From: Eledone cirrhosa
Lineage: Eukaryota
Reading direction: 5' to 3'
Assembly: GCA_964016885.1 (NCBI GenBank)
Contig: OZ024741.1
Span: 351,974,001-352,038,000 of the forward strand
DNA length: 64,000 nucleotides
Below, piece by piece: positions 1-41,266 of this stretch. Within the stretch, counting starts at the first letter, position 1, and every line of letters starts with the position of its first letter. Position numbers and translations under genes: made by a program. The notes under the pieces were generated by a model, which ran no database searches, was not told the DNA's origin, and was given only the letters and a program-made list of their open reading frames with translations.

Positions 1-204
1 TTTTGCCGTGGCACCTCCACGACCACTTTGCAGTGGAATGATAGGGACCCCAGTCCCTATCATTTCATTTCTACAGCTGAGTAAACTGGAGCAATGTGAA
101 ATAAAGTGTCTTGCTCAAGGAAACAACACATCACCCAGTCTGAGAATTGAACTCACAACCTTTCGATTGCAAGCCCAATGCTCTAACCACTAAGCCATGT
201 GCCT

Positions 205-2829: not shown

Positions 2830-3840
2830 GCCCTATCCATAAAGGGGGAAGCAGAGCAGAGGCTAAAAATTACAGGCCAGTCTCCCAGTAAGGTCATGGA
2901 ACGAATCATCAGATAGAAACTGATCATGCTCTCAAGGAAAATGATCGCCTAACTAACACTCAGCATCACTTTTGCCCAAGAAGAAGCTGTCTTGCACAGC
3001 TTTTACAACACTACGACTGAGTACTGAAACAAGTGCTGGGCAGCTCACATATGGACGTGATAGTCCTTCAAAACGGTCGACCATGGAATGATATGTCAAA
3101 AACTACACAAACTTTGCATAACTGGAAAAGTATGTGAGTGGCTGCATGACTTCTTAAAAGACAGAAGCCAGATTGTTGCAGCTAACGGGGCCCTCTCAAA
3201 AGAAATGTAAATAACAAGCGGTGTGCCCCAGGGCACAGTCTTGGGACCTTGACTGTTTTTGGTGGCTCTTTCAGACATGCCCTCTGTAGTACATACATCT
3301 CTCACTAGCTATCCTGGTGACACAAAGGTACCACAAGCAATCAAGAACCCGGCTGATGCTACTCTTTTGCAACAAGATCTGGATGCCATATACAAATGGG
3401 CTGAGGGCAATTTAATGCTGGAAAATTTCAAGCCCTACAATATCAACCTGCTAACACAACCTGGGTACAGACATGAGCAATGATGCATTGTTTTTTTCAC
3501 ACATCATGAGAGTGGTGAAAATGTGCAGACGATTTGCTGGCTGGAGCTTGAGGACTTTCAGGACAAGAGACTGAGAGACCATATTGGTACTATGAAGGAC
3601 ATTTGTTCTGAGCCGACTGGACTATTGCTCCCAACTGTGGTCACCCCAGAGTGTCAAACTAACCATGGAGCTTGAAGCAATCCAACGAAGCTACACCAAC
3701 AGAACTGCCACGATGAAGGCAATGAGCTACTGGAAGAGGCTAAAAGAACTAAAACTCTACTCCTTGGAATGAAGGCAGGAAAGATATGCAGTGATATACA
3801 TATGGAAGATCCTGGAGAGACTAGCACCAAACTTTGATGT
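2830..3840 (+). mobile_element. CR1/Jockey-group LINE reverse-transcriptase fragment (decayed)
   Basis: Frameshifted motifs NYRPVS, SGVPQGTVLGP and LQQDLDAIYKWAE. Confidence 0.8.
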
Positions 3841-4138: not shown

Positions 4139-4667
<529 letters not shown>

Positions 4668-4679
4668 ATATATATAGCG

Positions 4680-5160
4680 TGTAGCATAGGAGAAAAGATA
4701 AGTGAACACTGGCGAGAACTCCAGGATAGGAAAAACTCATCAGTACTCCGCCAACATACCAAAATAGAACATAGGGGCACATTAGAGAACATAGAGATAA
4801 ACATTATATCCACACAACAAATATAAATGAACTCCACCCATAATTAAACAGAAAACATGAGTGGAATAGCAACATCACAACTAGTAATTAAGGACAAAAT
4901 GAAGACACACACACAGACACACACAAAAACCAAACTAACAAAACAAATCAGACACACACACAGATAGAACAAGTAAATATAAACACAAACACACACACCC
5001 GGATGTAATGCATGCGCAAACTAAGCACAACACACAAAAACAAGATGGTGTAGGACCGAACAAAGGAGAGACACACAAAATAAAAACCTAGTCACTGAGG
5101 AGGTCACAGAATGTGTGATGAAAGAGCTTTGACAATATATAAACAATCTTCAGGGTTATT
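4680..5160 (+). mobile_element. Penelope-like element 3' remnant (GIY-YIG C-terminal part plus hammerhead region)
   Basis: IGEKISEHWRELQDRKNSSVLRQHTKIEH resembles the PLE GIY-YIG R..EH...S....H...H motif; followed by a hammerhead at 5091-5133. Confidence 0.7.
5091..5133 (+). ncRNA. Minimal type I hammerhead ribozyme motif
   Basis: gtca-CTGAGGA-ggtcacagaatgtgtgat-GAAA-gagc-TT-tgac; stem I gtca/tgac. Confidence 0.75.
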
Positions 5161-6310
5161 GGTTATCAAACCAACCAACCAACCAACCCGAAACTTATAA
5201 TAAATTGAAGACACACACACACACATATAGCATTAGGAAAGGAATCCACGCCTATAGAAACTGGACCAAAAATAAAAGTATGAGCAAAAGTTGGTCCTGT
5301 AACCTCTCTATCTTGAACTGTGATGACCTGCCCACCCATGGCATGAGAAGTGAATGCAAAATCATAAAGATGGTGATATATGCAGATACACATACATTCC
5401 TACAGACACACATTCCTGTATTTCTTGTACTTGTTTCAATCATATATATATATATATACATACATTCATTCATTCATTCATTTTATTAAGGCTAAATAGT
5501 GAGTCTTATTACTCTGGAGTTTCATCTATTTATTACAGGGTCATCTCAATAGTAGACAGTATAAATAAAGGGATGGAATGAGAGGGGGGTAACTGAGGAG
5601 GGGTAATGAAGATAGGGGGGTAGTGGCAGTTGGGGGGGGGGGATAGAGCTTTCTACTGGGCAAGGCAATGATAATGGGCATTGCCATAAAATGGTTTTAA
5701 TTGGTCATTGGCAGCAGGTGATGAATGTGAAGGTGGATGTGTTAGTGAAAAGGAGGAAAATTTTGGTGGAATTGGCAGAATAAAGTGGTAGAGGGAATAT
5801 CTATACAAACATACATATCGATACAATTACACATGTAGCATAGATACATAATATATCAATATACATATAAATATATACTAAATATACTTTCAGAGATGCT
5901 TACATATATATAAACAAGAATACATATAGATATAAAAAACATACAAAAAGTATACAAAGTACATATATGCACATGTAAACACACACATATATATATATAA
6001 AGAGAGAGAGAAGAGGAGGGAGGGAGGGAGAGAGGGGGAAAGAGAAAGAGTTAGTTCCACAACAAATTAGCAAACCACATTACAAGACAAGTGTGTTCTA
6101 CCAACTTAAGATATACCCCCCTGCGGGGGAGGGGGGTTAATGCTATATATATGTATATGTGTATGTATATGAATGTATGTGTATATATGTATATAACCAA
6201 ATGAAAAAGGTATATGTATACACAGTATATTGTATATATACCAAATACATATTCCATATATTGTCTTATGTACCATCTTCATTCTATATTTCTCTTAGAA
6301 TGGCGAGACA

Positions 6311-29867: not shown

Positions 29868-30472
29868 ATATTGTTATATTTGGGGAGGGTCATATTTGCG
29901 TAATATTGCCAGAATTAATAACAGAACACACTCACTGTTTGGTTGGTTTTCGCTTCTCGCTGTCTTTTATATATATATATCTGCGATCTAACTTACTCGG
30001 TCCTCAATGTTGCCATTGACTGACCGGCGGTCAAAAATAATACAGATACAATATAGACAAACACATATATATATAGTTTACATAATTTACATAAATCTTT
30101 CGTTGCACATCTGCAACATCGTCAGTGGTGTTATATTCATTGTTCCTCCTGTTGTGTTGTATGTCTACGCCATTTTTTTTGTTCCCAACAGGAGGAACAA
30201 TGAATATAACACCACTGACGATGTTGCAGATGTGCAACGAAAGATTTATGTAAATTATGTAAACTATATATATATGTGTTTGTCTATATTGTATCTGTAT
30301 TATTTTTGACCGCCGGTCAGTCAATGGCAACATTGAGGACCGAGTAAGTTAGATCGCAGATATATATATATAAAAGACAGCGAGAAGCGAAAACCAACCA
30401 AACAGTGAGTGTGTTCTGTTATTAATTCTGGCAATATTACGCAAATATGACCCTCCCCAAATATAACAATAT
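29868..30472. repeat. Long inverted repeat (287-bp arms, 31-bp spacer) with a hammerhead motif in each arm
   Basis: 29868-30154 is the reverse complement of 30186-30472, with no mismatch seen by eye. Hammerhead ca-CTGACGA-t-gttgca gatg tgcaac-GAAA-gatt-TA-tg at 30211-30251 (+), mirrored at 30089-30129 (-). Confidence 0.93.
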
Positions 30473-30526
30473 CTGTTTCGACACACGATTTCATATAAAA
30501 AACCTCGCAAAACTAATTCATCGCCG

Positions 30527-30579
<53 letters not shown>

Positions 30580-39800: not shown

Positions 39801-40406
39801 TCCTAACTCCAACCACCTTACAGCTTGTATTTTGTGACACCAGCACTACCACACATAGATGTAAACACATTCTCTTGTACATGTGCACACACACATGATT
39901 GTATATGTATATATATATATAAATATATACACACACACACAGTTCACCCACCATCATTTAACCCCACCTATTCTCAAGGAATGAAAACAGCTAGATTATA
40001 ACCTACTTAGTGTAAAATGCGAAGTGTCAAGTGTAGAGGGCATCAAGATTGAAACTCCAACCCAACTCCTCATCAACCCTCTCTTCTACAGAGAGTATTC
40101 ATCTAACCCAAACTCACTATCTCCTCCACCCTCAGACAGTGCACTAAATATATAGGCAGTTATAATTATCTATCTATCTAACCCTGACTAGCCCCCAACC
40201 AATCTCGCCATTCCAACACATACAGGCAATGCAGTAAATATATAGACAGACCTCTCTCTCTCTCACACACACACACATATTTGACTGTCTCAGATTTCCT
40301 TTCACTTCCTGCAGATGAGACACGAAAATATTTATTATATTTACTTTTATTCTCCCCCTCTTTTTCACATTTCTAACCTTATCATATACATATACACATA
40401 TATGTA

Positions 40407-40880
40407 TATTGTTATAATTTGGGAGGGTCATGCTGCCAATATGCACCTGTTGAATTTCACTTCAATTTATTATAAACACCCAATCGCTTAGTTTAATAAC
40501 TGGATGGTTGTTTAGTTGTTGATTGTCAAAGCTCTTTTGTCACACATTCTATGACATCATCAGTGACTACCTTTGTTGTTATTTTGTGTCACTCCTTTGT
40601 TCCTTTGTTCTGTTTTACATCTTATTTTTGTGAGCTATGTACTTCAGCTGTATTTTGTGTACACACCTCACAAAAACAAGATAGTGAATGACAGAACAAA
40701 GGAGAGACACAAAATAACAACAAAAGTAGTCACTGAGGATGTCACAGAATGTGTGACAAAAGAGCTTCGACAATCAACAACTAAACAACCATCTGATTGA
40801 ATAGAAATCTAACAGGTCTGTGTGTGTGTTTATTGACCCTCCCAAAGTATAACAACATCTGTTTCAACACATGTTTTCAG
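40407..40880. mobile_element. Degenerate foldback element with a hammerhead remnant in each arm
   Basis: Termini tattgttataatttgggagggtca / tgaccctcccaaagtataacaa. Inner arms 40502-40615 and 40690-40796. Hammerhead remnants at 40525-40567 (-) and 40729-40771 (+), both with GAAA changed to AAAA. Confidence 0.8.
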
Positions 40881-40884
40881 ATAA

Positions 40885-41266
40885 GAAAATTTGAAAAACG
40901 CCCAGGAAAACTGACGAAAGTGGTCTTGTTTCATGAAGACAATGCTCCAGCACACAAGTCCTTGGTTTCAATGGCTGCTGTGTGTGACTGTGGCTTTGAA
41001 CTGGTTGATCACCCTCCCTATTCTCCTGATTTGGCCCCATCTGTTCCCCAACATGAAAAAACACTTGGCAAGGAACCTGTATCACAGTGATGATGACATC
41101 ATATCTGCTGTTCATGACTTTTTGACTAACAGGGATCCAAACACTACAACAGCAATGAAAGAAGTGTCTGAATTGTAAGGGGAACTATGTTGAAAAATAA
41201 ACCTCATTTGGTCACATTTCATGAGAGTATCTTGGTCAGCCTAAGAAATTTTCAGCCAACCCTTGT
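40885..41266 (+). mobile_element. Mariner transposase pseudogene fragment with 3' TIR
   Basis: VLFHEDNAPAH and HPPYSPDLAPS motifs; end ...ttcagccaacccttgTA. Confidence 0.92.

What the first reader, a model, noticed from the sequence alone, without database searches (positions are those of the whole stretch)
40407..40880. Second, older hammerhead foldback with the same termini links the family to Penelope
Seen: same outer ends as the 29868 palindrome (ttgttata.tt.gggagggtca / tgaccctccc.aa.tataacaa) and the same right-only tail (ctgtttcaacacatgttttca), but different internal sequence. Its right arm (40675-40775) matches 5040-5140, which lies downstream of a GIY-YIG remnant. Both arms share the inactivating GAAA>AAAA change, so it predates the fold-back or was copied between arms. 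Inference: the foldback architecture recurs, which argues against an artefact, and the conserved terminus may be a cis-signal for the Penelope enzyme.
Basis: partly seen in the sequence, partly recalled or inferred. Interest (0 to 1): 0.75.

Follow-up and report, generated by a model that had tools for sequence, protein, structure and literature searches.

The report
Head-to-head Penelope retroelement end fragments
This imperfect DNA palindrome is two front-truncated end pieces of a Penelope-like jumping gene lying head to head, a layout already described for these elements and likely made when both cut DNA strands primed copying of the element's RNA.

Summary
Window 40406-40895 is an old, imperfect palindrome (arms 82% alike). 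Its outer ends and one-sided tail match those of the young palindrome at 29868-30527.

It is not a separate fold-back element. Each arm is the last ~240 nt of the 3' UTR (pseudo-LTR) of an abundant Penelope-like element (PLE). [quoted passage not shown]

Each arm carries a minimal type-I hammerhead motif with the published PLE features, although Rfam models do not detect it.

Only the right arm keeps the PLE 'tail'. Of 19 evaluable head-to-head pairs in this genome, 18 have exactly one tail and none has two.

An inverted 5'-truncated copy, a one-sided tail, a hammerhead in the pseudo-LTR and TA-repeat targets are all textbook PLE features (PMC8557442, PMC11167929, PMC4209133). This scan has noted the same layout before on other DNA.

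The shared GAAA>AAAA change sits on a CpG and is more likely parallel decay in the two arms than an inherited change.

The finding is ordinary. The strict one-tail rule is the only part that adds to what is in print.

The parts
40406..40642 (-). Left arm: an inverted, 5'-truncated 3'-end fragment of the PLE 3' UTR (pseudo-LTR). It ends outward at the family's 'short' 3' end (...TGACCCTCCCAAATTATAACAATA) and has no tail.
   Evidence: aligns to ruler L051 positions 1184-1423 on the minus strand.
40525..40567 (-). Hammerhead-like motif of the left arm: GUCA / CUGAUGA / bulged U / GUCAU...GUGAC / AAAA (G12 replaced by A) / GAGC-UU / UGAC.
   Evidence: Read. Aligned to family copies. Pair counts.
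40643..40657 (.). Central 15 nt that match neither arm (junction filler).
   Evidence: both arms reach the family sequence GTACA..CTCAC.
40658..40858 (+). Right arm: a direct, 5'-truncated 3'-end fragment of the same PLE 3' UTR. It has an internal deletion relative to the left arm at about 40794-40833.
   Evidence: ruler positions 1188-1464 with the tail.
40729..40771 (+). Hammerhead-like motif of the right arm: GUCA / CUGAGGA / bulged U / GUCAC...GUGAC / AAAA / GAGC-UU / CGAC.
40859..40895 (+). The PLE 'tail': the first 37 nt of the family's ~58-nt 3' extension. It is present on this arm only.
   Evidence: Its end is fixed by the start of mariner homology at 40896.
40896..41260 (+). Flank, not part of the element: a mariner/Tc1-type transposase fragment cut off at the junction. 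Its upstream part is absent from the left flank.
   Evidence: Pfam DDE_3 at E 1.3e-4, below cut-off. 40 scored genomic copies all start homology at query position 36-57. Junctions compared.
4681..5222 (+). Separate 5'-truncated copy of the same PLE family. It holds the C-terminal half of the GIY-YIG domain (4681-4826), the 3' UTR and a hammerhead motif with intact GAAA (5091-5133). The 3' end is lost in a (CA)n run.
29868..30527 (.). Young head-to-head pair of a second, low-copy PLE family. Arms are 29868-30154 and 30186-30472 (100% complementary), with a tail at 30473-30527 on the right arm only.

Best explanation
Window 40406-40895 is a head-to-head pair of 5'-truncated 3'-end fragments of an abundant endonuclease-bearing Penelope-like element. 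Each arm carries a decayed minimal hammerhead motif and only the right arm carries the element's 'tail'. The pair was likely made in one insertion event in which both cut target strands primed reverse transcription of the element's RNA from two different start sites.

Shown:
- Both arms are the last ~240 nt of the element's 3' UTR.
- In other copies the same 3' end follows an RT plus GIY-YIG ORF and, in partial tandems, runs through the tail straight into the next unit's 5' UTR.
- The two arms end at the family's two canonical 3' ends, one short and one with the tail.
- Such pairs recur with exactly one tail.
- Each arm has about 12-13 private changes and the arms share only 2 (plus the CpG site), so they were near-identical and close to the family majority when formed.

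Inferred:
- The endonuclease nicks both strands of an AT-rich target.
- Each 3' OH primes a cDNA on PLE RNA, one at the upstream start site and one at the downstream site (giving the tail).
- Both cDNAs stop early and are joined head to head.
- The locus then decayed neutrally. The two hammerheads lost G12 independently by CpG deamination.
- As DNA it now has no function. If transcribed it would form a long hairpin.
For: Anatomy.

PLE identity:
- L090 holds a 1240-codon open frame with RVT_1 (E 2.5e-4) followed by a C-terminal GIY-YIG (E 2.1e-4).
- The CIDKKCITC linker and the C..C/H..H motifs are readable.
- An upstream partial copy makes a pseudo-LTR, and the tail continues into the 5' UTR and ATG.
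- L051 shows ORF, 3' UTR, hammerhead, terminus, 58-nt tail, then (AT)n.
- A protein search gave 29,289 first-look candidates; all 129 that were scored matched.

Two kinds of 3' end: (18 single copies with the short end, 4 with the tail, of 22).

Pairs: 21 head-to-head pairs were examined and 19 could be evaluated. 18 have exactly one tail, 1 has none and 0 have two. P(>=18 of 19) is 3.8e-5 even at the most favourable chance rate of 0.5.

Arm 5' ends are independent. The tailed arm is the longer one in 7 of 13 one-tail pairs and the shorter one in 6. This fits two separate cDNAs.

Arm history: 142 columns are shared with the majority, 13 changes are left-only, 12 right-only and 2 shared derived.

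Hammerhead:
- The core is conserved across three PLE families, 94.9% of cells are paired, and 3 pairs show changes on both sides.

Literature: an inverted 5'-truncated copy, a one-sided 30-40 bp tail, HHR in pLTRs and microsatellite bias are described in PMC8557442 (passages). Both strands cleaved and extended, two internal RT start sites that bracket the tail, and a predicted dimer are described in PMC11167929 (passages).
Against: - No Rfam hammerhead model matches, even at E<=10 on short stretches.
- The RVT_1 and GIY-YIG hits are below Pfam's curated cut-offs (21.3 against 29.6 bits; 22.0 against 22.6 bits). The whole 1184-residue protein gave no Pfam family.
- No target-site duplication or empty site could be shown. 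The right flank is a mariner cut at the junction and its upstream part is missing on the left, so a deletion or later rearrangement is involved.
- In this particular copy the two arms stop within a few nucleotides of each other, which a snap-back model explains equally well.
- One pair (L052) has no tail.
- 5 of the 19 evaluable pairs came from a search with the tailed fold-back itself, which may bias them. Without them the count is 12 of 13 (P 0.0017).
- No RNA data were examined.
Confidence: 0.85

Rival explanations
1. Snap-back synthesis. A single cDNA primed at the tail site would fold back on itself. The reverse transcriptase would copy it back to the short end, giving both arms from one priming event.
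For: In this copy and in L004 the two arms stop within 3-4 nt of each other with a short spacer. Some pairs join at the perfect palindrome GTGAGCTCAC. The arms share two rare variants.
Against: A self-copied arm cannot be longer than its template. Yet the tail-less arm is the longer one in 6 of 13 one-tail pairs, by 82 nt in L053, 120 nt in L021 and 260 nt in L060. A stop exactly at the short end would need a further assumption.
Confidence: 0.08
2. Post-insertion inverted duplication. A single PLE 3' fragment would have been duplicated at the DNA level, by replication template switch or hairpin repair.
For: The palindromic layout itself. The left flank is not the expected upstream mariner sequence, so the locus has been rearranged.
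Against: A DNA copy would carry the same 3' end on both arms. Here one arm ends precisely at the canonical short end and the other carries the tail, as in 18 of 19 pairs. The arms share only 2 derived changes against 12-13 private ones each, so they split when the sequence was still close to the family majority.
Confidence: 0.04
3. A fold-back or MITE-type DNA transposon whose terminal inverted repeats happen to resemble a PLE end.
For: It has inverted termini of 25 nt and is short.
Against: The 'termini' are the 3' end of a retroelement and follow its ORF in L051 and L090. The tail is one-sided. Inner ends vary from copy to copy. No target-site duplication is visible. Single arms far outnumber pairs.
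Confidence: 0.01
4. An assembly artefact, such as a chimeric fold-back read.
For: Perfect palindromes in TA repeats, such as 29868, are a known hazard of long-read assembly (recalled, not from a call).
Against: The arms here differ by 36 mismatches and 91 gap columns. The differences include arm-specific CpG decay, which an artefact would not produce.
Confidence: 0.01

Closest known systems
Insertion units of endonuclease-bearing Penelope-like elements: pseudo-LTRs, an adjoining inverted 5'-truncated copy, and a 30-40 bp 'tail' at one end (Craig et al. 2021, PMC8557442, Fig. 2 legend and text passages read; Frangieh et al. 2024, PMC11167929, passages read)
   Same: 5' truncation, a head-to-head inverted copy, a tail on one side only, a hammerhead in the repeated 3'/5' UTR, and AT/TA-repeat targets. 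The tail is the stretch between two alternative 3' ends.
   Different: The tail of this family is about 58 nt in full (37 nt in this copy) rather than 30-40 nt. Here both arms are very short, pseudo-LTR pieces without ORF. The near-absolute one-tail rule (18 of 19) is stricter than the printed 'often'.
Minimal type-I hammerheads of metazoan PLEs (Cervera and de la Pena 2014, PMC4209133, passages read)
   Same: CUGANGA and GAAA boxes. Helix I of 4 bp. An unpaired nucleotide between A9 and G10.1. A G10.1-C11.1 pair. Almost no helix III (one A-U pair closing GAGC, which contains the palindrome AGCU). Missed by standard models.
   Different: Helix II is 5 bp here, against 7-8 bp in Schistosoma and 6 bp in D. 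virilis. Positions 15.2-16.2 are not fully palindromic. Both arms of this copy carry A at G12. Cleavage is untested.
Neptune/Nematis-type PLEs, which have a Zn-finger-like linker between RT and EN (PMC8557442, introduction and discussion passages read)
   Same: A C-terminal GIY-YIG preceded by C-x4-C-x2-C (CIDKKCITC). An internal C-x4-C ... H-x5-H is readable.
   Different: No phylogeny was made, so the clade assignment is by motif only.
L1 twin priming (recalled from general knowledge; no paper read)
   Same: Both target strands would prime cDNA synthesis, giving an inverted and a direct segment in one insertion.
   Different: In twin priming the two segments are different parts of one RNA and do not duplicate each other. 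Here both arms cover the same 3' region and each has its own canonical 3' end.
Metazoan retrozymes
   Same: Short non-coding hammerhead-bearing repeats thought to be moved by PLE enzymes.
   Different: Retrozymes are tandem arrays giving circular RNAs. These arms are inverted, not tandem, and are plain 3' fragments of the autonomous element.

Membership tests
Endonuclease-bearing Penelope-like element (C-terminal EN) | Single ORF with a reverse transcriptase followed by a C-terminal GIY-YIG endonuclease | tested here: met
   In the L090 1240-codon frame, RVT_1 scores E 2.5e-4 and GIY-YIG scores E 2.1e-4 at the C-terminus, in that order. Both are below Pfam's curated cut-offs, so support is moderate. 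L039 gives GIY-YIG at E 1.1e-3.
Endonuclease-bearing Penelope-like element (C-terminal EN) | Pseudo-LTRs formed by a partial tandem arrangement | tested here: met
   In L090 an upstream 5'-truncated copy (ORF end, 3' UTR, terminus, tail) runs directly into the 5' UTR and ATG of the full copy. The same 3' UTR is repeated downstream.
Endonuclease-bearing Penelope-like element (C-terminal EN) | Frequent 5' truncation with an adjoining inverted 5'-truncated copy | tested here: met
   Arm start points are scattered over ruler positions 586-1344. 21 head-to-head pairs were examined.
Endonuclease-bearing Penelope-like element (C-terminal EN) | [quoted passage not shown] | tested here: met
   In the window, the right arm has the tail (40859-40895) and the left arm does not. 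Across the genome 18 of 19 evaluable pairs have exactly one tail.
Endonuclease-bearing Penelope-like element (C-terminal EN) | Insertion bias for AT-rich or microsatellite DNA | tested here: met
   (TA)n or TA-rich DNA abuts most ends shown. In the window the left flank is TA/CA-rich but the right flank is a mariner fragment.
Endonuclease-bearing Penelope-like element (C-terminal EN) | RT groups with PLE/TERT reverse transcriptases in a phylogeny | not tested
   No reference PLE proteins were fetched and no tree was built.
Hammerhead ribozyme (minimal type I, PLE kind) | Conserved core CUGANGA ... GAAA, with U16.1-H17 before the cleavage site | tested here: not met
   The family majority and window 5091-5133 have the full core. 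Exact 24-mers number 1226 with GAAA against 289 with AAAA. Both arms of this finding have A at G12, so these two copies fail the core test.
Hammerhead ribozyme (minimal type I, PLE kind) | Helices I and II supported by pairing and covariation, with G10.1-C11.1 and a bulged nucleotide after A9 | tested here: met
   94.9% of cells are paired, against 14-44% when partners are slid. 3 pairs show changes on both sides between families.
Hammerhead ribozyme (minimal type I, PLE kind) | Match to a curated hammerhead covariance model | tested here: not met
   No Rfam hammerhead family matches at gathering score or at E<=10. The paper states that the published PLE min-HHRs needed a relaxed descriptor of their own (PMC4209133).
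Hammerhead ribozyme (minimal type I, PLE kind) | Self-cleavage | not testable with these tools
   This needs an in vitro transcription and cleavage assay. No arm start listed falls at the predicted cleavage site (ruler position ~1293).
Fold-back / MITE DNA transposon | Equivalent terminal inverted repeats, a target-site duplication, and a constant full-length structure | tested here: not met
   The ends are unequal, with the tail on one side. Inner ends vary between copies. The ends adjoin a retroelement ORF elsewhere.

The most novel reading that the evidence does not exclude
In living cells the two reverse-transcription start sites of a Penelope-like element are used in a mutually exclusive way by the two strands of one target break. 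One cDNA starts at the tail site and the other at the short site (18 of 19 pairs, none with two tails). This would mean that a single ribonucleoprotein dimer, perhaps on one RNA molecule, makes both cDNAs. Bulk in vitro assays could not see such per-event coupling, because they found no strand difference.
Probability: 0.35. Interest if true: 0.55.

Novelty: new member of a known kind. Interest (0 to 1): 0.25.

Why it matters
In itself this is a dead, ordinary insertion scar. It matters in three small ways.

1. It shows that short 'hammerhead palindromes' in this genome should be annotated as PLE insertion by-products, not as a new class of fold-back element or microRNA-like hairpin. Rfam's microRNA models score it at up to 79 bits.

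2. It gives a clean genomic read-out of how PLEs integrate. The two canonical 3' ends and the near-absolute one-tail rule constrain models of a transposition mechanism that is still only partly reconstituted in vitro.

3. It warns that shared 'inactivating' changes at CpG sites in palindrome arms need not be inherited.

Tried and rejected
- Rfam, whole window at gathering score and at E<=10, plus three short stretches: no hammerhead family. Only generic microRNA-hairpin and snoRNA noise appeared.
- Reading the tail as mariner coding sequence. The frame 40797-41090 is open and DDE_3 aligns from residue 12. But mariner copies have a different sequence upstream of 40896, and the tail recurs next to unrelated flanks. 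Rejected.
- Pfam on small ORF pieces (window 4554-4826, 3253-3483, 3596-3772; L050 pieces) gave nothing. The GIY-YIG remnant was confirmed by BLASTP against an intact copy instead.
- A conserved RNA structure in terminus plus tail. RNAalifold gives only a 6-pair stem at -1.09 kcal/mol with no covariation. The block is conserved as primary sequence.
Among the 25 arm-private changes only 1 is A>G and 2 are T>C. No such footprint here.
- Whether AAAA is a subfamily marker: no. 2 of 98 other listed copies of the U-bulge subfamily have it.
- A fuzzy-regex scan for the motif timed out and was replaced by BLAST.
- Pyatkov et al. 2004 (PMC522041) is not held, so its description of the tail is known only through the citing passage in PMC11167929.
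- Supplementary figures of the three papers were not opened.

Full report
**What is there.** The stretch is a real, imperfect palindrome.
- One search finds three nested inverted repeats: 40503-40602/40694-40793 (100 nt, 95%), 40406-40430/40834-40858 (25 nt, 92%) and 40619-40642/40659-40682 (24 nt, 88%).
- As a single strand it folds at -240.6 kcal/mol, against -106.1 +/- 5.9 for shuffles.
- The outer ends carry TGACCCTCCC, as do the ends of the perfect palindrome at 29868-30472.
- Past the right arm comes a stretch with no counterpart on the left. It aligns with the one-sided stretch at 30473-30527.
The one-sided stretch runs to 40895. From 40896 the sequence is a mariner-type transposase fragment: DDE_3 at E 1.3e-4, with 40 scored genomic copies starting homology at query positions 36-57, nearly all at 36-37, that is window 40896.
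- The open frame that runs from the tail into the mariner is a coincidence. Other mariner copies have quite different sequence upstream of that point.

**What the arms are.** A search of the window's own genome (3.0 Gb) with the fold-back gave 6136 first-look candidates. Most match one arm only.

Two kinds of outer end recur next to unrelated flanks:
- a short end, ...TGACCCTCCCAAAGTATAACAATA;
- the same plus about 58 nt, TCTGTTTCAACACACGTTTTCAGATAAGAAATCTTGCAAAACAAATTCAAAAACGAA.

The link to coding sequence:
- The copy at window 4681-5222 matches the right arm over the hammerhead region.
- Upstream, that copy matches the C-terminal half of a GIY-YIG domain, at 69% identity and E 5e-21 to an intact copy.
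- Other genomic copies continue upstream through ...NCKTRNVVYSIRCTEGQCRNKNITYIGETAR....
- Locus L051 shows the whole order in one natural copy: ORF (GIY-YIG, E 1.1e-3), 3' UTR, hammerhead-like block, terminus, 58-nt tail, (AT)n.
- Locus L090 holds a 1240-codon open frame with RVT_1 (E 2.5e-4) followed by a C-terminal GIY-YIG (E 2.1e-4). Both hits are below Pfam's curated cut-offs.
- L090 is preceded by a 5'-truncated copy whose terminus and tail run straight into the 5' UTR and ATG of the full copy. That is a pseudo-LTR arrangement.
- A protein search gave 29,289 first-look candidates, many with long open frames.

The element is therefore a canonical, endonuclease-bearing Penelope-like element (PLE). 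Both arms of the finding are its last ~240 nt.

**The hammerhead.**
- No Rfam hammerhead model matches, even at E<=10 on stretches of 121-491 nt.
- Read by hand, the family majority is GUCA-CUGAGGA-G-GUCAC-AGAAUGU-GUGAC-GAAA-GAGC-UU|UGAC. That gives helix I of 4 bp, an extra nucleotide after A9, a G10.1-C11.1 pair closing a 5-bp helix II, and a one-pair helix III.
- These are the traits that Cervera and de la Pena list for the minimal hammerheads of metazoan PLEs, which needed their own relaxed descriptor (PMC4209133, passages).
- Across three PLE families of this genome the core is invariant. 94.9% of cells pair, against 14-44% with slid partners. Three pairs change on both sides.
- I accept the motif as a PLE-type minimal hammerhead. 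Cleavage is untested.

**The shared GAAA>AAAA.**
- Both arms read AAAA.
- The G lies in a CpG (GTGACGAAA). Genome-wide, exact 24-mers number 1226 with GAAA and 289 with AAAA.
- In a sample not chosen on this site, 21 blocks give CG 13, CA 4, TG 3 and TA 1 (loci L032-L050). This is the pattern of CpG decay on either strand.
- Both arms share a rare U at the bulge position, so both come from one subfamily (183 exact matches). Among the 98 other listed copies of that subfamily, 90 read CG, 6 read TG and only 2 read CA.
- At a second CpG the arms have decayed in opposite ways, CA on the left and TG on the right.
- The source therefore most likely had an intact GAAA, and the two arms lost it independently. 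Inheritance or arm-to-arm conversion is possible but not needed.

**Age and origin of the pair.** Against 57 other copies there are 142 columns where both arms keep the majority base, 13 changes private to the left arm, 12 private to the right and 2 shared. About 0.5 shared changes are expected by chance. Arm-to-arm identity is 82% with 91 gap columns. So the arms were nearly identical and close to the family majority when formed, and have decayed separately since. This excludes an assembly artefact and argues against late duplication of an already old copy.

**Recurrence and the tail rule.** I examined 21 head-to-head pairs.
- Five came from the similarity search (L004, L006, L021, L023, L029), plus the window pair itself.
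- Nine were picked as minus/plus pairs of exact hammerhead 24-mers among the first 100 rows (L052-L060).
- Six are long, young, ORF-bearing pairs picked from the table (L091-L102).
- A tenth stretch fetched (L061) has its two copies in plus/minus order, not head to head, and was dropped before the count.
- Two pairs could not be scored: L054 has both 3' ends missing, and no terminus was found in L095.
- Of the 19 others, 18 have exactly one tail, one (L052) has none, and none has two.
- Even at a chance rate of 0.5 this has P = 3.8e-5. Leaving out the six possibly biased pairs gives 12 of 13, P = 0.0017.
- Single copies carry the short end 18 times and the tail 4 times, of 22.
- The inner (5') ends of the two arms are independent. 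Among the 13 one-tail pairs of this family, the tailed arm is the longer one in 7 and the shorter one in 6, by up to 260 nt.

**Mechanism.** All of this is the published picture of PLE insertions.
- High 5' truncation, partial tandems forming pseudo-LTRs, an inverted 5'-truncated copy next to the unit, a 30-40 bp tail often at one end only, hammerheads in the pseudo-LTRs and a microsatellite bias are described in Craig et al. 2021 (PMC8557442; passages).
- Frangieh et al. 2024 (PMC11167929; passages) show in vitro that a PLE protein cleaves and extends both target strands. They also show that reverse transcription starts at two internal RNA sites that bracket the tail, and that the protein is predicted to dimerise.
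- The best reading is that both 3' OH ends of one AT-rich break primed cDNAs on PLE RNA, one from each start site. Both stopped early, and the two were joined head to head.
- A snap-back of a single cDNA fits this one copy, whose arms stop within a few nucleotides of each other. It does not fit the pairs in which the tail-less arm is much the longer one.
- Not shown here: the break, the priming, the joining, and any target-site duplication. The left flank is not the missing upstream part of the mariner.

**What is and is not new.**
- The layout is known, and earlier notes of this scan describe it on other DNA, including the one-sided tail.
- What goes a little beyond print is the strictness of the one-tail rule in two families of one genome. 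The in vitro work saw no strand difference in start site. Per-event exclusivity would point to one ribonucleoprotein dimer making both cDNAs. A search of the library for papers combining Penelope-like, inverted, truncated, tail and target-primed found 6 and listed 5. Only Craig et al. bears on this.
- The terminus-plus-tail block of about 80 nt is the only part that BLAST finds conserved between the 40407-type and 29868-type families. No conserved RNA fold supports it.

Noticed in passing
window 29868-30527; L063, L064, L067, L065: The young 29868-type fold-back occurs at four loci with different (TA)n flanks but the same palindrome centre. Their arms are nearly identical between loci. So either the whole fold-back was copied as a unit or it was rebuilt identically. 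In L065 the tailed arm is about 435 nt longer and runs into the end of a GIY-YIG ORF, which shows this family is also a PLE 3' end.
   Followed up: partly
window 30186; L065:1504, L068:1804, L069:1811: Four copies of the 29868-type family start at exactly the same base (CC)AACAGGAGG, about 27 nt upstream of the CUGA box, next to unrelated DNA. This may mark the 5' end of a discrete RNA.
   Followed up: no
L003, L007, L014, L022, L023, L028 (about locus positions 1500-1730); window 40630-40639: Many 40407-type arms start at AGCTCACAAAAAC, and some pairs join at the perfect palindrome GTGAGCTCAC. Genome-wide the word AGCTCACAAAAACAAG occurs 136 times. 77 are preceded by AC (read-through) and 10 by GTG (palindromic junction). 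A self-complementary AGCU at an RNA 5' end could help two cDNAs pair head to head. This is only an idea.
   Followed up: partly
L023:1341-1521 (minus strand): Five tandem copies of the 21-24-nt terminus motif (TGACCCTCCCAAAGTATAACAACA and variants) precede the tail in one copy, as if initiation had slipped or restarted.
   Followed up: no
window 40896-41260: A mariner/Tc1 transposase fragment is cut exactly at the PLE junction. Its upstream part is absent from the other side of the fold-back. So the insertion went with a deletion, or the locus was rearranged later.
   Followed up: partly
G000:C26:18267420-18268063 (L044:802-1445): Seven head-to-tail repeats of about 95 nt are made from the piece of the PLE that encodes the GIY-YIG C-terminal half (query positions 17-100). 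They lie just upstream of a normal 3' fragment.
   Followed up: no
window 136-199, 54745-54808, 4336-4393: Three tRNA-like matches at or just above Rfam's gathering score (33, 33 and 29.3 bits). Two of them are identical, so they are probably tRNA-derived SINE heads rather than tRNA genes.
   Followed up: no
L090 (G000:C11:10051500-10059500) and table: The related PLE family has many copies with uninterrupted frames of 1226-1257 codons at about 80% protein identity to L039. It has several head-to-head ORF-bearing pairs in (TA)n. It looks recently active.
   Followed up: partly
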